Below are positions 28,252 to 41,979 of a stretch of 64,000 nucleotides of DNA, piece by piece. This DNA is from Naegleria gruberi. Taxonomy: Eukaryota. Each line of letters starts with the position of its first letter. Position 1 is the stretch's first letter. A program made the translations under genes and the position numbers. The notes beneath the pieces are model-generated. The model had not been told where the DNA came from and did not search any database. It worked only from the letters and a program-made list of their open reading frames with translations. The stretch lies in the NCBI GenBank assembly GCA_000004985.1, contig GG738852.1; one strand, written 5' to 3'.

Positions 28252-30165
28252 ATGAATGAACGTTGGCTTCTATTCTTCCTATGTGGTTTAATACTGTTTT
28301 TTTCCTTGTTTTGCTTTTACCCAAACCTAGTGGAAAGATTAAGAGAATTATCCTCTCTAGATAGTATATCGGAAATTATTGATCAAGTAGTGTGGAAATC
28401 AAAACATCGGAATTTTCACTTCTTCATGGAAATGTGTATGTTCGTAGTGTGTGTCATTCTGGTGCCACACTTGTACATTGGAAGGAGTCAAAATGATGCT
28501 AGGGAAGGAAAATTAATTGGATACGGATTATTTCCTCTGCTGAGTTATTGTATCGGAATGTATTTTGATTTAGGTGCTGGGTTTACTGATGGTTTTGTGG
28601 TTGTGAGATCGATAGCCCAGCAGGAGAAACAAGTACAAGCACTTTTTACAGATTCCCGACAACATATTCTAACATTTTCAAAACCATTTTCAATATTTCA
28701 TACCAGCTTGATTACAAATATACTTGCACTATTGATGGAGGATCGAATGCAATTCTTGAAACTCTATATTTATGGCTCGTATGCAGCCATATTGAGTATT
28801 TATTGGCCAATCTCCTCAAAAATAGCATCTGGCACACTCAAAGTTGGTTATATTAAGAAAGCTCTATTGTCAATGAATTTGAATGTTGATTGGATAACTA
28901 GTACGGAATTTATTTCTCTAATGAGTGTGATTATTATTGGATTTTTGGTATTTGAATTAACATTTTCAATTTGTAGGAAATTTTCCCCTTCATCCTTTAC
29001 ATTTGGAGAAAGTGTTATTATGAGTAACATTACGAGTGTTTGTTTTTTGAGATTAGTAGACTTGTCGAGGAATGCACATCTATTGGTGGCTGACGATGTA
29101 TCAATGGTTGAAGCATTGATAGAACTCATGATTCTATCTACAGTTTTCTTTGGAATATCATGCTATTTTATATTTGTTAAATTGACTGGAAGGAGGTACA
29201 ATACCATTCTCAATTATATGGCCTATGCTATTTTCTATTACTCTATTGTACTTATTTATGTATTGCCAAAGGTATTACTTCCTAATGAGGCAGTGTCAAT
29301 TGAGAATATTAAGAATCCAATTATTTGGATTGTTGAATTTATATTTATCAAAGATGCCATGCACTTGAAAATATTAGTTTATTGGCTAATGTGTATGTCA
29401 TTCATGTTTATTGTAATGAGCTTTTCAAAGGAGAAAACAATAGAAGTTTCAAAAACAAAAAAGAAGGATTTGATATACCTTTTTGGAGGAAGAATAAGTG
29501 TCCCAAAAATCATTTATAGAAAATTCTTTCATATTATGGCTGTCATTATGTTTGTACCTGTTACTATTCAAAGACCTCTATTCATGTGCCTGAGTTATGC
29601 TGTGGCAATTTGTTTATTCTTACTAATTGAGAGTTTCAGAGTTCAATTCATCACAGAGCATGAAGTCAACTCGCTAGCAAGAGCTCTCCATTTTTATATT
29701 AAGCAATTTACAGATTCAAGAGATTCTGGCACTTTTATATTGACACATATTTATCTTTTAATTGGATGCATGATACCTACCTGTGTGGAAATTTTCAGTC
29801 ATGAAAAGACAATTAATTATCATAGAATTTTATCAGGAGTCATGATTTTAGGAATTGGAGATACCATGGCATCAGTTGTTGGTTTCAATTTTGGAAAAAC
29901 CAAGTGGAATTATCCTATTGATACCAAAAAATCAGTTGAGGGTACGTTTGCCTCATTCCTCAGTGTTTGTTTCATTTCCTATCTTGTCGTGCCAATTCAT
30001 TTCACTTCCAACTTGGAATTGTGTAGTTATATATTTTGTACACTTGCTGCCAGTATGTTGGAGGCTTACACTGTACAAATTGATAATTTGATACTTCCAG
30101 TATTCTTCTACACCCTATTGTGTGCCTTCTCAACCATTCAAAGTCATTTGTTTACTATTCTGTAA
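28252..30165 (+). CDS. dolk: Dolichol kinase (SEC59/DOLK family), polytopic membrane protein
   Basis: 637 aa from an ATG with more than 10 predicted TM segments. The C-terminal CTP-transferase-like signature is ILGIGDTMASVVGFNFGKTKWNYPIDTKKSVEGTFASFLSV, cf. DOLK LGDTAASIFG...KKTVEGT. Confidence 0.65.
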   Translation: MNERWLLFFLCGLILFFSLFCFYPNLVERLRELSSLDSISEIIDQVVWKSKHRNFHFFMEMCMFVVCVILVPHLYIGRSQNDAREGKLIGYGLFPLLSYCIGMYFDLGAGFTDGFVVVRSIAQQEKQVQALFTDSRQHILTFSKPFSIFHTSLITNILALLMEDRMQFLKLYIYGSYAAILSIYWPISSKIASGTLKVGYIKKALLSMNLNVDWITSTEFISLMSVIIIGFLVFELTFSICRKFSPSSFTFGESVIMSNITSVCFLRLVDLSRNAHLLVADDVSMVEALIELMILSTVFFGISCYFIFVKLTGRRYNTILNYMAYAIFYYSIVLIYVLPKVLLPNEAVSIENIKNPIIWIVEFIFIKDAMHLKILVYWLMCMSFMFIVMSFSKEKTIEVSKTKKKDLIYLFGGRISVPKIIYRKFFHIMAVIMFVPVTIQRPLFMCLSYAVAICLFLLIESFRVQFITEHEVNSLARALHFYIKQFTDSRDSGTFILTHIYLLIGCMIPTCVEIFSHEKTINYHRILSGVMILGIGDTMASVVGFNFGKTKWNYPIDTKKSVEGTFASFLSVCFISYLVVPIHFTSNLELCSYIFCTLAASMLEAYTVQIDNLILPVFFYTLLCAFSTIQSHLFTIL

Positions 30166-30844: not shown

Positions 30845-32390
30845 TTAAACATTATCTTGTGAAGTAAAGTTTGGCTTTGTGTCATCTGCCATATGATATT
30901 TGAAAAGATAATATTGACTAGTAACAGAAACAAGTAATAGCCCACAACAAACTTCAAATTGAGAAATAGAATTAACATAATACAATGATAATACAACCAG
31001 AAAATTGGTAGGAATTCTAATATAGTTCATAACAGTAGATCTGACATCTTCTGGTATGTACATGCTCTTCATGGTAGAGATGGCAGGCCAGAATACTCCA
31101 ACACATGCTTCAAACACTAAAAAGCTCAATAAAATTGGTGTGAATGAAGAGAAAAAAATTGGAATGATGAATGAAACTATTGCAGTAATAAATACAATCA
31201 AGAGAATGAATTCCACACTTGAGAAACGGCTAGCATTTGTAAAACTCTTCTGAGAGCTAGCATTGGAATAAAAGATTTTGAAAATTGAACTTCCAATCAT
31301 GACAGAAATCATAAAGGCGGCAAATACATAACCAATGTCCAATTGTTTAACACCATCCCAGTATGCTTGTTGCAAAGTTGGAGTCCACATTAAAACAAAA
31401 ATATACATTGCAGCTTCAAAGAAACTTTGTGAAATTGCAACACACAAAACTTTCTTATCAGTCCTAATAACTTCATATCCTCTAATGAAATTCTTTTTCC
31501 AATCACCAGTGGTGTCACCATAATTTTCATTCCAATTATAGTAAATTATTGCACCTCCAATAACGAGGAAGATAATGGCACCTAATATTTATCAGTAAAA
31601 ACAGTAAAATTAGATTATTGTAAATTATTAATAATTTTACAATCAAAAACTTACAATCAAATGGAGCTACAGGACTTCCTATAATATCATATAAAAAGTT
31701 TGAAACAAATCCTGACAAGATTGCAATAATTCCATTTGCAAAAGTCTGCTGATAAAAAGTATCTCCAATCCAAGAAGGATCGAATTTGGCATTGTTATGC
31801 TCGTAAATCATCCAAGATTCGAATACAGAACTCAAAATACTAGTAGCTATTCCACTGAAAAATCGTCCAATCATTAATACCACCAAGTTGGAGCTGTGTT
31901 TTGTCAAGCAAGCCAAAGCATATAAAACTACAAATGTCAAACAAATTTTCTTTCTCCCTCTAAAATGAAAATATTCATAAAATCACATGAGAATGAAAAA
32001 ACTCACAACTTGTCAGAAAGAGATCCAATAATCGTTCCAAAAATCATACTACTAAAGAATCCAAATATAAACAACCTAGATATTGTCTCAATTTCATATC
32101 CGTACGATTCATAGAGAACATATACATAGGCTCCTATTTTCATCACACACAATAATTTTGACAATTATTCAAAAAGTCGTCATCTTACCTTGAAGCCAAT
32201 CACTAAAAGTCATACACAAATACACAACCAAATAATTATTTTGAAATTTTGCAAATGTATTCAATGTGCTCTGAGTGAGATTTGTTGTTGTTGACGATAA
32301 AGTAGTAGTAGTAACATTCCGATTATAATAGCCAACACAATTCAGTAGTAAACAAATGACCAATAAAATACCATTGATGAGGAGAAGCAT
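30845..32390 (-). CDS. MFSD5-like molybdate-anion transporter (MFS), 4 exons: complement(join(30845..31581,31655..31959,32007..32133,32189..32390)), ~456 aa
   Basis: Three track ORFs are linked by introns of 55 nt (GTAAGA..AAAATAG), 47 nt (GTGAGT..TTTTAG) and 73 nt (GTAAGT..ATTAG). The spliced protein matches MFSD5 landmarks: DWLQG, LSDKLGRKKICLTFVVLYALACLTK (cf. VDWLGRKNSCVLF), SVFESWMIYEHN (cf. SAFEAWYIHEH). Exon lengths sum to 1371, a multiple of 3. Confidence 0.65.
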
Positions 32391-32486
32391 TTTTTGAAAG
32401 TGAGGAAAATAAGAAATTGTGGCGGGAAATATGAAACTCTTTGGAATAATTATTAAATGTGATTAAAAATCAAACAATTGCTTATT

Positions 32487-33593
32487 ATGAAAAGGTGGAA
32501 AATTGAATTAGTTGGGAAATTATTGAAAAAAATGATAAGTGGACAAGCTGTTGAAACTTTTTCTGATTCAATCGGAGTGAATTTTCTTCCCAGAGAAATT
32601 GTCTTTGAAATTTTACAGTATTGCAATTGTATTGATATGATTCTTGCGTGCAGTAAAGTTTGTTGTGAGTGGAGAGAAGTGTCATTTGTATTGATTTCGG
32701 ATCAGTGTAAAGATTTGATCAAGAAATTCAAGATTAAATTATTGAATGATTCTGATAGAAGTAATTTAGTCAGATATTTAATAAGAAGGGAGGTATTGAA
32801 TCTTGCTCGCAAGACTATTTCAAAATTCAACCAAAATTCAATTGGAAATTATTTTGAAAATAGAGAGACGGAAATTACACAATTGAAAGGTTACTTTTCA
32901 CAATTTACAGATTTGCCAAACAAGCTGGAAAATTCAACTATCAAACCAGAAAAACAAGAGAAGGTAGAATCTGATAGTAGTAATCAATTATTTGGGGCCT
33001 TCTCTCGATTTGTTTCAAGTTTCTTTTCAGATTCCAGAATTGATTCATCTACAAATGAGATACCTTTTAAAAGGAGAATTGTAAAAGTTTTAATGAAAGG
33101 AGCTCTCCTATCTGGAAAGACATCATTTATTAAGTGTTCAATAATGAAAAGACCTGTCGATGGAACTATTCGAAATTCAATTCTGCCAGATTTTGGCATG
33201 GTAGAGAGGCAGCTGGACAATGATTTGAGAATTACAACTCAATTATGGGATGAACATCGATACAACAAACCAACAGAATTTTCCAACGTGTTTGCTGTCA
33301 TATTAACCATCGATCCATATAATGTTATAACCCTTAATGAATTGAAAACTTTTATTGAGCCAATCAAAGAGAAACTGAATTCGACCATTGAAGTAATACT
33401 AGTACAGACCAAGAAGGATTTACAAAATGAACGAAATGAAAGAGTAAGATATCTTTCAGAAGAACCATTCGAACAATTTTCCTTTAGAAATTTCAGAGGT
33501 GGTTTATCACACAATATTTCCAACACTAACATTGAAGAACCATCTCTGATTCTTTGGTATTGTACCCTATTGAATTATCTCATGATGCCATAA
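32487..33593 (+). CDS. F-box protein fused to a degenerate Ras-like small-GTPase domain
   Basis: The first ATG (MKRWKIELVG...) lies 9 nt inside the TTG track start. The F-box is LPREIVFEILQYCNCIDMILACSKVCCEWREV. The C-terminal domain has a P-loop KVLMKGALLSGKTSFIK, a degenerate switch II (LWDEHRYN in place of WDTAGQE) and an NKxD-like ILVQTKKDL. Confidence 0.5.
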   Translation: MKRWKIELVGKLLKKMISGQAVETFSDSIGVNFLPREIVFEILQYCNCIDMILACSKVCCEWREVSFVLISDQCKDLIKKFKIKLLNDSDRSNLVRYLIRREVLNLARKTISKFNQNSIGNYFENRETEITQLKGYFSQFTDLPNKLENSTIKPEKQEKVESDSSNQLFGAFSRFVSSFFSDSRIDSSTNEIPFKRRIVKVLMKGALLSGKTSFIKCSIMKRPVDGTIRNSILPDFGMVERQLDNDLRITTQLWDEHRYNKPTEFSNVFAVILTIDPYNVITLNELKTFIEPIKEKLNSTIEVILVQTKKDLQNERNERVRYLSEEPFEQFSFRNFRGGLSHNISNTNIEEPSLILWYCTLLNYLMMP

Positions 33594-33725
33594 CTTTTTC
33601 TCATTTCATTAATTAATTTATTCTCAATTAACTACGTATTTATATTATCAAAACAGAATCTTTGCTTTGAAAAAATGTAATAATTTTTGGCGGGAAACAA
33701 GTCATTTAAAATTAGCCTTAAAAAA

Positions 33726-35777
33726 ATGCCTGAGGAATCCATCTACAAGAACAACTCATCTGGCATTGCTTCGATATTCTCAGCACATGCGGGTGGTAGT
33801 AATAATGTACAATCCATTCAACCAACGAGGGTTGCTTCGAGAGTAGGCTCTGCAAAAGCACCAACATCATCAGCGAATAGAACTCATACAACAACAACAT
33901 CGTCATCAGCAAGACAACCAGTAAAATCAAATAGAATCGGATCGACCTATGATAAGACCTTTCATAACAAGGTAGATAAGTTGGTGTCGGATCCAATTAG
34001 ACAAGTAACAGGGAGGAAGAATATTCTTGCTAAGGAAGGTGTAATGCCTACAAAACCAACTGATATTGAGAATAATGCTGTGCGAGGAACGGTGGCAAAA
34101 AAACTAGGAGTACAACCTAGTAGGAATAATAATCAAGCAAAACTTACAAGACCTGTTAATGGTGCTTTTGGAAAGGATCAGTGGGAAATTGAATGGGATG
34201 ATAAGGATGAGAAATCTGAAAACATTATACCAAAACAATCAAAACCTTCAAACAATTTATCTGGTGACATTAATAGTATAAATTGGATCGAGAGACTTGG
34301 AAGAGGTAAATGTTCTTCCATTTGTGATGTGAATGGAAGACCAGTTACTAGTATTGAATCGAGCTCTTCTCATTGGTATATTTTAACTTATGAGGAAAAA
34401 TCATTCTTAGACATTGAAACCGAGGATTTTAACATTACCACTTCAATCAAAATTCAAAAAGGAAATGAAAACAGTTTATTTACTATCGTCCTTGACTATG
34501 GAATCAACAAGAGGTGCAAGGATGAGTACATTGCCATTGTAATGAACGTAGCCCAGAAATATTGGAAGATTGAACGAGTGGAAAATAAGAAAGTGGTACC
34601 AGTGCAACAGGCAATAGATAAGAGCTTGGCTCCTCTCAAATATATGGATATTTCTATATCTTTATCTGAGAGAAAGCTCACACTCAAAAACGATAATACT
34701 GAAATATTTACTGATGTTATTCTTCCAATATCTTCGGAAGGCTCTAAGGAGAGACGAGTTGGTCTTGGAGTCATGTCAGCCAAAGTTTCAATTTATGATT
34801 GGACAGTATTTGATCCAAAGACTCAAGAAAAGGAGGAAGATCTTCCGATTGCAGAGAGACCCCTACCTGATTACATTGACAAACACTTGGCTGAAATGAT
34901 AAAGAGAGATATTATAGAATTCAATCCAAATGTGACTTGGGAAAGTATTGCAGAATTGCACGATGCAAAGAGGCTTTTGAAGGAGGCAGTTGTACTTCCT
35001 CTCCTTATGCCTGACATTTTTGCTGGTTTACGATCTCCTTGGAAGGGAGTTCTGCTGTTTGGTCCACCTGGAACTGGTAAGACGATGGTTGCAAGGGCTG
35101 TGGCAACAGAAGGAAAGACCACTTTTTTCAATTGTAGTGCTTCCACTCTGGTTTCGAAATACCACGGAGAGTCTGAAAGATTGGTCAAGACACTTTTCCA
35201 AATGGCCAGATTGTTTAGTCCGAGTACAATTTTCTTTGATGAAATTGATGCCTTAATGATGACAAGAGGAAGCTCTTCAGAGCATGAAGCATCCAGAAGA
35301 CTTAAAAGCGAGATTTTGACCCAAATTGATGGTATCAATAGTCAAAGCAGTAGGGTCATGGTATTGGCAACGACGAACAAACCTTGGGATTTGGATGAGG
35401 CTATGAGAAGAAGACTAGAAAAGAGAATTTACATCCCTCTACCATATGAAAAAACAAGAGTATCCCTCTTTAATATTTTTTTAAAAGATCAAGAGATGGA
35501 AAGTGATGTTTCCACTGAGAGTCTTGCTGTCTTAACAGATGGATACAGTGGTGCAGACATTCATTTATTGTGTAGAGAGGCTGCTCTCAGACCACTGAGG
35601 AAGGAGCTTGATCATAGGTCAACTGAGGAAATTATGAAGTTGAAAGAACGAGGAGAGTTGAAACTCAGTCTCTGTATGGAAGATTTCTCAGAGTCAGTCA
35701 AAACAATGAAACCAAGCGTTTCTCAAAACGAAATTGAAAAGTATCAACAGTGGATGAAGGAATTCCAAAGTGTATAG
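33726..35777 (+). CDS. katna1: Katanin p60 ATPase catalytic subunit (meiotic-clade AAA+)
   Basis: The first ATG (AAAAAAATGCC) lies 39 nt inside the TTG track start. The AAA module is near-identical in pattern to KATNA1: AKRLLKEAVVLPLLMPDIFAGLRSPWKGVLLFGPPGTGKTMVARAVATE, STIFFDEIDAL, EHEASRRLKSEILTQIDG, RRRLEKRIYIPLP, SGADIHLLCREAAL. The N-terminal ~400 aa are divergent. Confidence 0.8.
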   Translation: MPEESIYKNNSSGIASIFSAHAGGSNNVQSIQPTRVASRVGSAKAPTSSANRTHTTTTSSSARQPVKSNRIGSTYDKTFHNKVDKLVSDPIRQVTGRKNILAKEGVMPTKPTDIENNAVRGTVAKKLGVQPSRNNNQAKLTRPVNGAFGKDQWEIEWDDKDEKSENIIPKQSKPSNNLSGDINSINWIERLGRGKCSSICDVNGRPVTSIESSSSHWYILTYEEKSFLDIETEDFNITTSIKIQKGNENSLFTIVLDYGINKRCKDEYIAIVMNVAQKYWKIERVENKKVVPVQQAIDKSLAPLKYMDISISLSERKLTLKNDNTEIFTDVILPISSEGSKERRVGLGVMSAKVSIYDWTVFDPKTQEKEEDLPIAERPLPDYIDKHLAEMIKRDIIEFNPNVTWESIAELHDAKRLLKEAVVLPLLMPDIFAGLRSPWKGVLLFGPPGTGKTMVARAVATEGKTTFFNCSASTLVSKYHGESERLVKTLFQMARLFSPSTIFFDEIDALMMTRGSSSEHEASRRLKSEILTQIDGINSQSSRVMVLATTNKPWDLDEAMRRRLEKRIYIPLPYEKTRVSLFNIFLKDQEMESDVSTESLAVLTDGYSGADIHLLCREAALRPLRKELDHRSTEEIMKLKERGELKLSLCMEDFSESVKTMKPSVSQNEIEKYQQWMKEFQSV

Positions 35778-35790
35778 AATGAATAAATTA

Positions 35791-37242
35791 TTAAAATGTT
35801 TTCAATTCGAGATCAAAATATCCAGCTTCATCATTTTGATTTCTAACATCTTCATCATTGATACTGACAATGATTATAGAATGGCCATCGCAAAATACGC
35901 CTCTCACAGAACTATGTGGGAATGTGGCTTTTCCTGGAACTAATTTTTTGATCCATTTTGAAACTTCACCTATTTTAGAAGTGGTTTGAGCTTGTTCTTT
36001 GGTTTCGGTTGGTTCAGGTTTTTCTTCAATGATATCCTGATGTTCTATAATTTCAAAACTGTCTGCCCCATCAATGGTTTCTCTTAAATTGTCGGCTGGA
36101 ATGGTTTCATTTTCTGAAATGTTGTAATTAGAAGTGGTATTTAAAGTTTCCTTCTCCTTAGCTTCCAATTTGTTACCATTCTTCTTATTTACAACACTGG
36201 CTACACTTGCTATTGCTGGAGCAGAAGCTATTGTAGCTGTTGATAATCCACCTCCAACAACCAATGCTGCTCCACCTCCAATCAATCCCACACCTGTCAA
36301 AACTCCAGAAGCAATTCCAACACCAACAGCAACACTACCACAAACAGTTCCAATAATTGGTAGTGCTTTATCCCATGTTGTCAGTTGCTTGTGTTTGGAT
36401 GTATGCAATTTTCCAACTTCAACAGTGAAATGAACTCGTCCAACACCCTCGAATATCCCCATTCTATTTGGTGGTATAAGTAATTGATAGAGAGGACCTA
36501 CTTGAGACAATATTACATTGATGGGATGTTGTGTCCTATTGTCAATTAAAAGTGATCCTCCAAGAGCACCATTCATATAGAGCTTTCTAATAATGAGTGG
36601 TGTATGTATTATATTTGTTGAGAAATGAGGATATGTTTTTAATAATCGAGTCCAATAGATAAAATCCTGATTATTCATGTTGATAATTTCTTCCTCTTCC
36701 TCCGTTAAATTATTTACATCGAGCACCGAATCAGATACTTGAAATATTTGATGGTGTTCAAAATCATCATCGTTAGCAGTTGACACTGGCAAGCTTTCAA
36801 CAGTCACAATTTCAATATCATCATCATCATCCGAATCATCAATATCATTCATATTTACAATATAATTAGATCGTGGATCAAATATTTTGTGATTCTTTCC
36901 ATCCAAATAGTGTTTCCTCACATGTTCTCTACATAGAGCCAACTCACAATCTCCACAATAATAATTCGTTGGTATAATAGCATTCTGTTCATGAAGACAA
37001 ACATCACACGTTGGAAAGGCAAACCTTGCTGGAGCAATTGTTGTGGGCGATAGAGATTCTGTCATTGGACGAAAGGCTATTGTTGTCTGTTCTCCATCAC
37101 CATCACCAATTAATTCATGATTCGGATCGTTGGGTAAATGATTATCATCCGTATTGTCACCTCCCATCAATGTATTGGTTGCATTCTTGATGCTCCCGAA
37201 AAAACTTCCAACAAATGAATTGTTCAAGGTTGAAAAGACCAT
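35791..37242 (-). CDS. B-box zinc-finger protein with Gly/Ala-rich hydrophobic region (hypothetical)
   Basis: 483 aa from an ATG. The B-box-like motif is CDVCLHEQNAIIPTNYYCGDCELALCREHVRKHYLDGKNH. There is an acidic DDSDDDDD tract and a G/A/V-rich putative membrane segment (GTVCGSVAVGVGIASGVLTGVGLIGGGAALVVGGG). Confidence 0.4.
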   Translation of the reverse strand: MVFSTLNNSFVGSFFGSIKNATNTLMGGDNTDDNHLPNDPNHELIGDGDGEQTTIAFRPMTESLSPTTIAPARFAFPTCDVCLHEQNAIIPTNYYCGDCELALCREHVRKHYLDGKNHKIFDPRSNYIVNMNDIDDSDDDDDIEIVTVESLPVSTANDDDFEHHQIFQVSDSVLDVNNLTEEEEEIINMNNQDFIYWTRLLKTYPHFSTNIIHTPLIIRKLYMNGALGGSLLIDNRTQHPINVILSQVGPLYQLLIPPNRMGIFEGVGRVHFTVEVGKLHTSKHKQLTTWDKALPIIGTVCGSVAVGVGIASGVLTGVGLIGGGAALVVGGGLSTATIASAPAIASVASVVNKKNGNKLEAKEKETLNTTSNYNISENETIPADNLRETIDGADSFEIIEHQDIIEEKPEPTETKEQAQTTSKIGEVSKWIKKLVPGKATFPHSSVRGVFCDGHSIIIVSINDEDVRNQNDEAGYFDLELKTF

Positions 37243-40170: not shown

Positions 40171-41979
40171 ATGAAACGAATCAATAACAAGGTTATCTTT
40201 CTAATAGCTACTGTAATTGTAGCTTTGCTTGCATTAGGAGTTTCCGTCTCCTTGCAACAACAAGTATCTGCTCAAGCAGGTGCCCAAGCTAGTAGTAGTG
40301 GTGCTTCTGTTAATGCTGGAGGCCAAGCCAGTGCTGGAAATCAGAATAACACTCAAGGTGGTGGACAAGGGCAAGGACAAGGACAGCAACAAGGTGGCAC
40401 ACAAGGACAGAACAATACATCTACTCAAGAGTTGAACAAGTTTTTGAATCGTATTGATACTGATTTGAGAATGATTGGAAGCTTTATTGATAGATGTGCA
40501 GGTTTGCAGCAACAAGGCCCAGGTGGTCAACAAGGTGGTCAACCAGGTGGTCCTGGACAAGGACAATTTGGTCAACCAGGCGGACAAGGTGGAATGCCAC
40601 AACAACCTCAACCAATTCAAGACCAAGGACCTCCAACTCAACAACAACAACCTGAATCTATGTGGTATTCAATGTTGGGAATGATTGGCTTACAACAATC
40701 TCCTCAACCACAACTTTCTGCCCAACAACAATTCCCACAACCTTCTCCTCAACCACAGCAATCACCAGCTCAAGCTCAGCAATCACCACAACCTCAACAA
40801 TCACCGGTTCAAGCCCAACCATCTCCACAACCACAGCAATCACCAGCCCAACCTCAACAATCACCACAACCTCAACAATCACCAGTTCAAGCCCAACCTT
40901 CTCCACAACCTTCTACAGTTGGAGCTGGTGCTGGTAGTCAAGAAACTAGACAACAAATTGCTTGTGGAATTGTTACCAAGGCTGCCACTAACTTGTTGAA
41001 TAATACCATGAGTTTAGTTTCCACTGTTAGTAACAATACCCAAATCAGCTCATCACTCAAGCAAGCTGTTGCTCAATTGCTTATTAAGGCAAATTTATTG
41101 TCTTCCAATGCCAAGAATTCAAGTTGGACCAATTTCCTTACCTCATTTGATCAATATGCTGTTAGTTTCTCAGCCTTGCAACAATCTCTCTCCAGACGTC
41201 AACAACAAGGCGGCCAACAAGGAGGACAAGGACAACAAGGCGGCCAACAAGGTGGCCAACAACAAGGTGGTCAAGGACAGCAAGGTGGTCAATTCGGTCC
41301 TCCACAACAAGGTGGTCAACAAGGACAATTTGTGCCACCTCAACAACAAGGTGGTCAACAAGGTCAATTCGGTCAGGGACAACAACAAGGCGGTCAACAA
41401 GGCCAATTCCCTCCACAACAAGGTCAAGATCAACAACAATATTCCTATCCACAACAAGGTGGTCAACAAGGTCAACAATATCCACAACAGCCTTATCAAG
41501 GACAATATGGTCAAGGACAACAAGGAGGTCAACAACAATATCCACAACAGCCTTATCAAGGGCAACAACAATATGGTCAAGCAGGCCAATATGGTCAACA
41601 AGATCAATATGGTCAAGGTCAACAAGGTGGACAACAATATGGTCAACAGTATCCTTACCAAGGACAACAAGGAGGTCAACAACAATATGGCCAAGGTGGA
41701 CAACAATATGGTCAACAAGATCAATACGGTCAAGGACAAAGTCAATACGGTCAACAATATCCACAACAGCCTTATCAAGGTCAACAAGGACAAAGTCAAT
41801 ACGGTCAAGGACAACAAGGAGGTCAACAACAATATCAACCACAGTATCCAACACCTTTCTACCAAAATCCATACCAATACAGAAATCCATACTTTTACCA
41901 AAGCCCAAGTTATCAATACTATCAACCACCACAACAACAACAACAATATGAAGGCTATTATCCAGAATATTATTACTAA
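40171..41979 (+). CDS. Secreted Gln/Gly/Pro/Tyr-rich low-complexity repeat protein (prion-like / glutenin-like composition)
   Basis: From an ATG, with the signal peptide MKRINNKVIFLIATVIVALLALGVSVS. Repeat families are QQSPQPQQSPVQAQPSPQP, GGQQGGQGQQGG and YGQGQQGGQQQYPQQPYQGQ, with a Tyr-rich C-terminus. A non-repetitive core lies at ~aa 250-330. Both strands are open across the repeats. Confidence 0.6.
   Translation: MKRINNKVIFLIATVIVALLALGVSVSLQQQVSAQAGAQASSSGASVNAGGQASAGNQNNTQGGGQGQGQGQQQGGTQGQNNTSTQELNKFLNRIDTDLRMIGSFIDRCAGLQQQGPGGQQGGQPGGPGQGQFGQPGGQGGMPQQPQPIQDQGPPTQQQQPESMWYSMLGMIGLQQSPQPQLSAQQQFPQPSPQPQQSPAQAQQSPQPQQSPVQAQPSPQPQQSPAQPQQSPQPQQSPVQAQPSPQPSTVGAGAGSQETRQQIACGIVTKAATNLLNNTMSLVSTVSNNTQISSSLKQAVAQLLIKANLLSSNAKNSSWTNFLTSFDQYAVSFSALQQSLSRRQQQGGQQGGQGQQGGQQGGQQQGGQGQQGGQFGPPQQGGQQGQFVPPQQQGGQQGQFGQGQQQGGQQGQFPPQQGQDQQQYSYPQQGGQQGQQYPQQPYQGQYGQGQQGGQQQYPQQPYQGQQQYGQAGQYGQQDQYGQGQQGGQQYGQQYPYQGQQGGQQQYGQGGQQYGQQDQYGQGQSQYGQQYPQQPYQGQQGQSQYGQGQQGGQQQYQPQYPTPFYQNPYQYRNPYFYQSPSYQYYQPPQQQQQYEGYYPEYYY

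What the first reader, a model, noticed from the sequence alone, without database searches (positions are those of the whole stretch)
32487..33593. F-box fused to a degenerate Ras-like GTPase domain
A canonical N-terminal F-box (LPREIVFEILQYCNC...CCEWREV) is followed by a C-terminal domain with an intact P-loop (GALLSGKTS) and NKxD-like TKKD, but a degenerate switch II (LWDEHRY). This suggests an SCF substrate adaptor that uses a nucleotide-binding or pseudo-GTPase module, an uncommon combination.
Basis: seen in the sequence. Interest (0 to 1): 0.5.

Follow-up and report, generated by a model that had tools for sequence, protein, structure and literature searches.

The report
Naegleria F-box protein with broken Rab domain
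This is a real single-exon Naegleria gruberi gene that joins an F-box (a ubiquitin-ligase docking motif) to a Rab-type GTPase domain whose molecular switch is broken, but both this gene and its large Naegleria-specific family were already catalogued in 2021.

Summary
Window 32487-33593 (+) is one uninterrupted 368-codon ORF, identical to N. gruberi XP_002680716.1 ("rab subfamily member").

- **F-box:** residues 33-66 score above Pfam's cut-off.
- **G domain:** residues 193-368 fall just under Pfam's Ras cut-off as a single sequence. A profile of its relatives hits Rab1A/Rab8A at about 1e-35, and an AlphaFold2 model matches Rab structures (TM 0.66-0.81).
- **G motifs:** the P-loop is intact. 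The switch-I Thr is Ser. Switch II has a 5-residue deletion that removes the DxxG glycine and the catalytic position. G4 is TKKD, G5 is SNT, and there is no prenylation cysteine.

TKxD, a Pro in place of the catalytic Gln, and TNT in G5 are family traits. The switch II deletion is a further decay in this gene.

The fusion is not new. Herman et al. 2021 (BMC Biol 19:142) list this accession as "Rab + F-box". They describe three Naegleria-specific, birth-and-death clades of F-box/Rab-like genes and propose GTPase-linked ubiquitination.

The most likely function is an SCF substrate receptor whose Rab-derived domain is a non-switching binding module; this is inferred, not shown. It shows no specific affinity to trypanosome FRP. 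Interest is low.

The parts
32487..33593 (+). Complete single-exon CDS (368 aa plus stop) of the F-box/Rab-like protein. It equals N. gruberi XP_002680716.1 / EFC47972.1 / D2V4Q3, whose annotated start is the second Met at 32532.
32583..32684 (+). F-box, aa 33-66 (FLPREIVFEILQYCNCIDMILACSKVCCEWREVS).
   Evidence: Pfam PF00646, 25.3 bits against cut-off 20.5. This is the best-conserved segment versus relatives, with mean identity 35%. Modelled as three short helices, 36-43, 48-55 and 60-73.
32685..32918 (+). Family-specific helical linker, aa 67-144, ending in the conserved L-K-x-Y-F-x-x-F-x-D motif (LKGYFSQFTD).
   Evidence: Alignment A1 consensus. AF2 helices 75-81, 88-115, 120-125 and 127-138, with pLDDT 63-91 in 10-residue blocks. 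No Pfam family matches.
32919..33062 (+). Low-confidence, probably disordered spacer, aa 145-192, containing one conserved amphipathic helix (LFGAFSRFVSSFF, about aa 168-180).
   Evidence: pLDDT below 50 for 145-174 and 181-192, with a helix at 168-180. The G-x-F...SFF motif is conserved in A1 and in XP_002677810.1.
33063..33590 (+). Rab-derived G domain, aa 193-368, with no C-terminal prenylation cysteine motif (it ends ...WYCTLLNYLMMP).
   Evidence: Pfam Ras 20.7 bits. PDB Rabs. Family profile hits Rab1A/Rab8A at 1e-35. Foldseek finds Rabs at E about 1e-9, TMt 0.66-0.81.
33099..33122 (+). G1 / P-loop GALLSGKT, aa 205-212. It fits GxxxxGK[ST] and is intact.
   Evidence: G205 is invariant in A1
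33177..33179 (+). Switch I position: Ser231 sits where Rabs and most relatives have the Mg2+/gamma-phosphate Thr (TIGxDF becomes SILPDF).
33246..33263 (+). Switch II remnant WDEHRY, aa 254-259. A 5-residue deletion relative to the family's WDQCGPERF removes the DxxG glycine and the position of the catalytic Gln.
   Evidence: The switch II/alpha2/beta4 segment is the least conserved part of the protein, with 16% mean identity.
33408..33419 (+). G4 TKKD, aa 308-311. The Asn of NKxD is replaced by Thr, as in most relatives. Asp311 is invariant in the family alignment.
33516..33590 (+). G5-equivalent ISNT (SAK is lost; the family consensus is ITNT) followed by the conserved C-terminal helix NIEEPSLILWYCTLLNYL.
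   Evidence: The segment aa 314-368, which contains this feature (aa 344-368), is 55% identical to the closest paralogue P0002.

Best explanation
Identity (shown): this gene is a divergent, lineage-specific member of the Naegleria-restricted F-box/Rab-like family. Its order is N-terminal F-box, family-specific helical linker, then a Rab-derived G domain without a lipid anchor.

Mechanism (inferred): the F-box docks the protein onto Skp1-Cul1-Rbx1. The Rab-derived domain sits where WD40 or LRR domains sit in classical F-box proteins, so it would present bound partners for ubiquitination. That makes the protein a substrate receptor of an SCF ligase. It would be the CRL1 counterpart of metazoan Rab40 (Rab + SOCS box, Cul5) and RhoBTB (Rho + BTB, Cul3).

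In this copy the P-loop and the guanine-specifying Asp are kept, so nucleotide binding is still plausible. The switch-I Thr is Ser, and switch II has lost five residues including the gamma-phosphate-sensing Gly and the catalytic position. The domain therefore cannot run a canonical GTP/GDP switch or hydrolysis cycle. It most likely works as a constitutive protein-binding scaffold, i.e. a pseudoGTPase.
For: - Domain identity.
- Collinear full-length homology to paralogues in N. gruberi, N. fowleri and N. lovaniensis, and to unnamed metagenome sequences.
- Motif states.
- Selective retention: the F-box (35% mean identity) and the C-terminal G5/alpha5 region (33% mean, 55% to P0002) are kept, while switch II has decayed to 16%. 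This pattern argues for a protein still under constraint for docking and scaffolding but not for switching.
- Intact 368-codon ORF.
- Published catalogue entry and the authors' own proposal of 'GTPase-dependent ubiquitination' (PMC8296547 supplements).
- Precedent that a Rab fused to a cullin-adaptor box is a substrate receptor: Rab40-CRL5 (PMC8129794, PMC9070665).
Against: - There is no experimental or expression evidence for this gene.
- Skp1 binding, nucleotide binding and substrates are all untested.
- As a single sequence it misses Pfam's Ras gathering score (20.7 against 21.6).
- It is the long branch of its clade: 127 and 111 bits to P0002 and P0003, which score 233 bits to each other.
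- No orthologue was found in other Naegleria species.
- The family is reported to undergo birth-and-death evolution with pseudogenes, so relaxed selection or incipient loss of function is a live alternative.
- For trypanosome FRP, its authors linked the F-box to rapid turnover of the protein itself.
Confidence: 0.55

Rival explanations
1. Self-turnover model. The G domain is the functional unit, a Rab-like regulator or scaffold. The F-box serves mainly to tie its own abundance to SCF-dependent ubiquitination, giving a short-lived signalling protein rather than a substrate receptor.
For: The authors of the only experimentally studied F-box-GTPase fusion, trypanosome FRP, linked its F-box to the rapid proteolysis they observed for that protein (PMC3593210). 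F-box proteins are commonly auto-ubiquitinated (general knowledge).
Against: The G domain here has lost the switch that would make it a regulator. It also has no membrane anchor. The conserved helical linker between the F-box and the G domain resembles the rigid linkers of substrate-receptor F-box proteins. The two models are not mutually exclusive.
Confidence: 0.2
2. Decaying paralogue. The gene is a recent casualty of birth-and-death turnover. It is still open-reading but no longer under selection, and the switch lesions are neutral decay.
For: The family is reported to contain disrupted copies in both species. Several relatives have independently lost G1 or G3: P0012, P0029, P0026 and P0010. 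This copy is the long branch with no detectable orthologue. Its accession appears only once in Table S8, so it does not appear among the one-to-one orthologues listed for N. fowleri in the stored text.
Against: There is no stop or frameshift in 368 codons of AT-rich DNA. Decay is not uniform. F-box key residues, the P-loop, Asp311 and the C-terminal helix are retained while switch II is not. The published table does not flag it as a putative pseudogene.
Confidence: 0.18
3. Rab-mimic decoy. The non-switching Rab-like domain imitates host Rabs so that Rab-binding effectors of intracellular bacteria (for example Legionella) are captured and ubiquitinated by SCF. This would be an 'integrated decoy' form of amoebal immunity.
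For: Evidence is circumstantial only. The expansion is lineage-specific and fast-evolving, with birth-and-death dynamics, and the family's authors suggest roles 'at the organism-environment interface'. The family profile is closest to Rab1/Rab8, which are favoured Legionella targets (general knowledge). Naegleria is a Legionella host (papers listed).
Against: There is no direct evidence at all. Switch regions, which most effectors read, are exactly what is degraded in this copy.
Confidence: 0.05
4. Artefact. The F-box and the G domain belong to different genes, or the motif matches are chance.
For: Single-sequence Pfam scores are modest: 25.3 bits and 20.7 bits.
Against: There is one continuous ORF with neighbouring genes tight on both sides. 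The divergent MFS_5 gene has its ATG at 32390, and the AAA ATPase has its ATG at 33726. The same collinear architecture occurs in more than 10 relatives from three species.
Confidence: 0.02

Closest known systems
Naegleria-specific F-box/Rab-like GTPase clades (Herman et al. 2021, BMC Biol 19:142, Additional files 4 and 10)
   Same: It is a listed member: XP_002680716.1 is annotated 'Rab ... F-box' in Table S8. It has the same N-terminal F-box extension plus a divergent Rab-like domain, and the family has no close relatives outside Naegleria.
   Different: The switch II deletion and the Ser in switch I go beyond the family norm. The paper's text does not discuss G-motif states. This copy lacks the CaaX motif reported for one of the three clades.
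Rab40 (Rab + C-terminal SOCS box; Cullin5 substrate receptor, metazoa)
   Same: A Rab-type domain is fused to a cullin-RING adaptor box, and the Rab domain recruits substrates (PMC8129794, PMC9070665). This is the best functional analogue.
   Different: The box type and position differ: an N-terminal F-box for Cul1 versus a C-terminal SOCS box for Cul5. Rab40 has canonical G motifs and prenylation, which this protein lacks. No SOCS match was found. The two fusions are independent.
RhoBTB (Rho-like domain + BTB domains; Cullin3 adaptor)
   Same: An atypical, poorly or non-hydrolysing small-GTPase domain is joined to a cullin adaptor module. It is also present in Naegleria.
   Different: The GTPase subfamily differs (Rho versus Rab), and the adaptor differs (BTB/Cul3 versus F-box/Cul1). 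Details of RhoBTB biochemistry are from general knowledge and were not tested here.
Euglenozoan FRP (FYVE - F-box - GTPase; TbFRP Tb927.7.3790)
   Same: It is the only experimentally studied F-box + Ras-like GTPase fusion. It occurs in Discoba, the supergroup that also contains Naegleria, and its G domain is also atypical (PMC3593210).
   Different: This protein has no FYVE domain, and there is no room for one, since only 96 bp separate its ATG from the neighbouring gene's ATG. The Naegleria family profile scores TbFRP at only 22.6 bits, over the G domain alone, against 125 bits for human Rab1A. FRP lacks NKxD altogether, whereas this family keeps TKxD. The FRP authors found no N. gruberi orthologue.
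PseudoGTPases (e.g. p190RhoGAP pG1/pG2, AAGAB)
   Same: It has a G-domain fold with lost catalytic and switch motifs, presumably used as a protein-interaction module (PMC5593906, PMC12490416).
   Different: Those examples have lost nucleotide binding. Here the P-loop and the guanine-specifying Asp persist, so the class (nucleotide-binding or not) is undetermined.

Membership tests
F-box (Pfam PF00646) | Profile match above the curated gathering score | tested here: met
   25.3 bits against 20.5, E=1.4e-5, aa 34-65. Relatives score 1e-5 to 3e-7.
F-box (Pfam PF00646) | LP...hydrophobic heptad...VCxxW signature forming a three-helix bundle | tested here: met
   LPREIVFEILQYCNCIDMILACSKVCCEWREV. 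AF2 helices 36-43, 48-55 and 60-73.
F-box (Pfam PF00646) | Binds Skp1 and assembles into SCF | not testable with these tools
   This needs co-immunoprecipitation or yeast two-hybrid with N. gruberi Skp1.
Ras superfamily / Rab small GTPase | Pfam Ras (PF00071) at or above the gathering score | tested here: not met
   20.7 bits against 21.6 for the single sequence. The family profile, however, hits Rab1A at 1.6e-35, and relatives score 75-103 bits.
Ras superfamily / Rab small GTPase | G-domain fold (six-stranded sheet with five helices) | tested here: met
   The AF2 model has pLDDT 72 and pTM 0.72. The top 50 Foldseek PDB hits are nearly all Rabs, with TMt 0.66-0.81.
Ras superfamily / Rab small GTPase | G1 GxxxxGK[ST] | tested here: met
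   GALLSGKT
Ras superfamily / Rab small GTPase | G2 switch-I Thr | tested here: not met
   Ser231 aligns with the Thr of TIGxDF. Whether Ser can substitute is untested.
Ras superfamily / Rab small GTPase | G3 DxxG followed by the catalytic Gln (WDTAGQE) | tested here: not met
   WDE-----HRY, with Gly and Gln positions deleted.
Ras superfamily / Rab small GTPase | G4 [NT]KxD and G5 SAK | tested here: inconclusive
   TKKD keeps Lys and Asp but not Asn. G5 is SNT rather than SAK. Both states are family-wide.
Ras superfamily / Rab small GTPase | C-terminal Cys prenylation motif (CC, CxC or CaaX) | tested here: not met
   The protein ends ...WYCTLLNYLMMP.
Naegleria F-box/Rab-like clades (Herman et al. 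2021) | Conserved N-terminal extension with an F-box upstream of a divergent Rab-like domain; listed in Table S8 | tested here: met
   The accession is listed as Rab + F-box. It aligns full-length to XP_002677004.1, XP_002677810.1, XP_002676638.1 and others.
Naegleria F-box/Rab-like clades (Herman et al. 2021) | No close relatives outside Naegleria | tested here: met
   phmmer was run against 1.84 billion representatives. All full-length relatives whose source was looked up are N. gruberi, N. fowleri or N. lovaniensis (one further relative is N. lovaniensis). The rest are unnamed metagenome sequences.
Euglenozoan FRP | N-terminal FYVE domain | tested here: not met
   No FYVE hit. The ATG lies 96 bp from the divergent neighbour's ATG.
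Euglenozoan FRP | G domain, F-box and linker specifically related to FRP | tested here: not met
   The family HMM scores TbFRP 22.6 bits (G domain only), B. saltans 12.8, Euglena 6.8, and Rab1A 125. Caveat: the FRP sequences were retyped from an OCR'd alignment.
Rab40 | C-terminal SOCS box | tested here: not met
   No SOCS-box match in Pfam at E up to 10.
PseudoGTPase | G-domain fold lacking motifs required for hydrolysis or switching | tested here: met
PseudoGTPase | Demonstrated absence of GTPase activity, and defined nucleotide-binding class | not testable with these tools
   This needs recombinant protein with MANT-GTP binding, thermal shift and hydrolysis assays.

The most novel reading that the evidence does not exclude
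The Naegleria F-box/Rab-like expansion, including this non-switching copy, could be a family of 'Rab decoys'. In this reading, Rab look-alikes wired to an SCF ubiquitin ligase capture and destroy Rab-targeting effectors of intracellular bacteria. That would be an amoebal innate-immunity device analogous to the integrated decoys of plant NLRs. A weaker variant: the family is a new class of Rab-derived pseudoGTPase substrate receptors with family-wide non-canonical G3, G4 and G5 motifs.
Probability: 0.06. Interest if true: 0.75.

Novelty: already known. Interest (0 to 1): 0.2.

Why it matters
[quoted passage not shown] This gene would then show that the GTPase module can persist as a pure binding scaffold after its switch is lost. 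That is a modest addition to an already published catalogue. It gives a concrete, easily cloned candidate (single exon, 1.1 kb) for testing whether these fusions bind Skp1 and whether nucleotide binding still matters. It does not open a new question by itself.

Tried and rejected
1. Word-indexed homologue search with the single protein found only the protein itself. With the family alignment it found only two proteins. These searches were unhelpful, and the exhaustive phmmer search was needed.
2. NCBIfam gave only a spurious weak PtuB hit, 16 bits against a cut-off of 150. Rejected.
3. The weak Pfam hits Nod1 and DUF2115 are far below cut-off. Rejected.
4. No paralogue exists elsewhere in the window: tblastn found only the gene itself.
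5. Orthology with euglenozoan FRP was tested and not supported.
6. The multi-stretch hits P0018, P0020, P0023, P0025 and P0030 were checked as possible FRP-like multidomain proteins. They are tandem-Rab proteins or gene models without an F-box.
7. A Foldseek search of AFDB50 for full-architecture matches in other taxa could not be run because the library was unavailable.
8. dN/dS could not be estimated. The closest relative is only 34% identical, so synonymous sites are saturated.
9. A literature search for 'F-box domain' + 'Rab-like' + 'domain architecture' returned nothing. The relevant description sits in supplementary files of PMC8296547.

Full report
**What is in the sequence**

Window 32478-33593 (+) is one uninterrupted ORF. 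Its first ATG is at 32487, giving 368 codons plus a stop. The gene is tightly bracketed by neighbours:
- A multi-exon MFS_5 transporter gene on the minus strand has its ATG at 32390.
- An AAA ATPase with AAA, AAA_lid_3 and Vps4_C domains on the plus strand has its ATG at 33726.

There is therefore no room for further 5' exons short of jumping a neighbouring gene. The translation is 100% identical to N. gruberi NEG-M XP_002680716.1 / EFC47972.1 / D2V4Q3, annotated 'rab subfamily member'. That model starts at the second Met and is 353 aa. The window is thus Naegleria gruberi nuclear DNA, about 34% GC and gene-dense.

**Checking the two domain calls**

The F-box is solid. Pfam PF00646 gives E=1.4e-5 and 25.3 bits against a gathering score of 20.5, over aa 34-65.

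The G domain is marginal as a single sequence:
- Pfam Ras gives E=3.3e-4 and 20.7 bits against a cut-off of 21.6.
- phmmer against PDB chains finds Rab33B, Rab3C and Rab6 at 6e-4 to 3e-3.

I therefore looked for relatives. An exhaustive phmmer scan of 1.84 billion representative proteins found only 30 hits at E<=1e-3. About fifteen of them are collinear over nearly the whole length, at 350-450 aa. Every such relative that carries a name comes from N. gruberi, N. fowleri or N. lovaniensis. The rest are unnamed metagenome proteins, one of which lies on a compact eukaryotic contig.

These relatives score Pfam F-box plus Ras at 1e-21 to 1e-29. A profile built from 14 of them (A1) hits Rab1A and Rab8A structures at about 1e-35.

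An AlphaFold2 model built on A1 has mean pLDDT 72 and pTM 0.72. It shows this layout:
- F-box helices at 36-73.
- A helical linker at 75-138.
- A low-confidence spacer at 145-192, with one conserved helix at 168-180.
- A Rab-type alpha/beta domain at 195-365.

Foldseek against the PDB returns Rabs at E of about 1e-9 with target-normalised TM 0.66-0.81. The honest caveat is that the lone sequence sits 0.9 bit under Pfam's curated threshold.

**Motif anatomy**

I aligned the protein with Rab1A and 15 relatives. The family norm is:

| Motif | Family norm | This gene |
|---|---|---|
| G1 | GxxxxGKT | GALLSGKT, intact |
| G2 | TIGxDF | Ser231 in place of the Thr (SILPDF) |
| G3 | WDQCGPE (DxxG kept, catalytic Gln replaced by Pro) | WDE-----HRY |
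| G4 | TKxD (Asn to Thr) | TKKD |
| G5 | ITNT in place of SAK | ISNT |

The G3 state is a five-residue deletion that removes the DxxG glycine and the catalytic position. There is no C-terminal cysteine motif.

So TKKD is a family trait, while the switch II lesion is an extra loss in this copy. Other members have independently lost G1 or G3: P0012, P0029, P0026 and P0010.

Region-by-region identity to relatives is highest in the F-box (35%) and in the alpha4-beta6-G5-alpha5 end (33% mean, 55% to the closest paralogue). It is lowest across switch II/alpha2/beta4, at 16%. The protein is the long branch of its clade. It scores 127 and 111 bits to P0002 (N. gruberi) and P0003 (N. fowleri), which score 233 bits to each other.

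**What is already known**

The literature search led to Herman et al. 2021 (BMC Biol 19:142; PMC8296547). Their Additional file 10 (Table S8) lists XP_002680716.1 as 'Rab' with additional domain 'F-box' and no pseudogene flag. Their Supplementary Material 4 makes these points:
- N. gruberi has nearly 90 Rab(-like) loci, against at least 55 in N. fowleri.
- The difference is due to three Naegleria-specific clades of divergent Rab-like genes, each with a conserved N-terminal extension identifiable as an F-box.
- The clades show signs of birth-and-death evolution, including disrupted copies.
- One clade has CaaX.
- The F-box is the most frequent extra domain on Naegleria Ras-superfamily GTPases (Rab, Rho, Ran, G-alpha), 'pointing to GTPase-dependent ubiquitination'.
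- No specific function could be predicted.

'F-box' occurs 72 times in that table. The architecture, the family and this very gene are therefore already catalogued. The G-motif states and the switch II deletion are not discussed in the text I could read.

**Relation to the other known F-box-GTPase**

Trypanosome FRP has the order FYVE, F-box, GTPase. It is restricted to Euglenozoa, and its authors found no N. gruberi orthologue (PMC3593210). I retyped the T. brucei, Bodo saltans and Euglena sequences from the paper's OCR'd supplementary alignment and scored them with the Naegleria family HMM. The scores were:
- TbFRP: 22.6 bits, G domain only.
- Bodo saltans: 12.8 bits.
- Euglena: 6.8 bits.
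- Human Rab1A: 125 bits.

FRP also lacks NKxD entirely. I conclude there is no specific affinity and that the fusions are probably independent. The caveats are the OCR noise and the absence of a proper phylogeny.

**Mechanism**

Shown:
- The domain order.
- An intact F-box signature.
- A Rab fold.
- A retained P-loop and guanine-specifying Asp.
- Loss of switch II, of the catalytic position and of the lipid anchor.
- Uneven conservation that favours the F-box and the C-terminal helix.

Inferred:
- The F-box docks to Skp1-Cul1.
- The rigid helical linker positions the Rab-derived domain as the substrate-binding module.
- Because this copy cannot sense the gamma-phosphate, it acts constitutively as a pseudoGTPase scaffold rather than a GTP-gated receptor.

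The best functional analogues are Rab40-SOCS-Cul5 (PMC8129794, PMC9070665) and RhoBTB-Cul3. The pseudoGTPase precedents are p190RhoGAP and AAGAB.

Three rivals remain:
- The F-box controls the protein's own turnover, as suggested for FRP.
- The copy is drifting towards pseudogenisation.
- Speculatively, it is a Rab decoy for bacterial effectors.

The artefact reading, two genes or chance motifs, is excluded.

**Verdict**

The function remains an inference. Novelty: already known. The residual new detail is the 5-aa switch II deletion on top of the family-wide Gln-to-Pro, Asn-to-Thr and SAK-to-TNT states. It is of interest mainly to specialists in GTPase evolution. Interest 0.2.

Noticed in passing
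window 32420-32429 (+) and 33688-33697 (+): The 10-mer TGGCGGGAAA, which looks like a canonical E2F site, occurs exactly twice in the 64 kb window (0.05 expected; 0 of 100 shuffles reach 2). One copy lies 58 bp upstream of the F-box/Rab-like ATG, inside the 96-bp divergent promoter shared with the MFS_5 gene. The other lies 29 bp upstream of the AAA ATPase ATG at 33726. This may be a shared promoter element or cell-cycle regulation.
   Followed up: partly
window 33726-35777 (+): The immediate downstream neighbour is a 683-aa AAA ATPase with AAA, AAA_lid_3 and Vps4_C domains and a long low-complexity N-terminus. This resembles the katanin/fidgetin/spastin 'meiotic clade'.
   Followed up: partly
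window 30845-32390 (-): The upstream divergent neighbour is a multi-exon MFS_5 (PF05631) transporter. It is split over at least four ORF pieces by short introns.
   Followed up: partly
window 40171-41979 (+): This is a 602-aa ORF with an N-terminal hydrophobic, signal-like segment followed by extreme Q/G/P/Y-rich low complexity (QQGGQQGQ, SPQPQQ and QYGQ repeats). It explains the local GC rise to 42%, the strong AT skew and the overlapping long ORFs on both strands. There are many degenerate tandem repeats with periods of 12-117 bp.
   Followed up: partly
L001 2130-3212 (JGI metagenome 3300002220 contig MLSBCLC_10245333): A 360-aa F-box/Rab-like relative (P0005, 28% identical) lies on a compact, seemingly intron-poor eukaryotic metagenome contig beside PH-domain and rhomboid genes. 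This suggests the family extends to unsequenced Naegleria-like organisms in the environment.
   Followed up: no
window 35791-37242 (-) and 28252-30165 (+): Two long ORFs near the finding, 483 aa and 637 aa, have no Pfam match at E<=1e-3.
   Followed up: no
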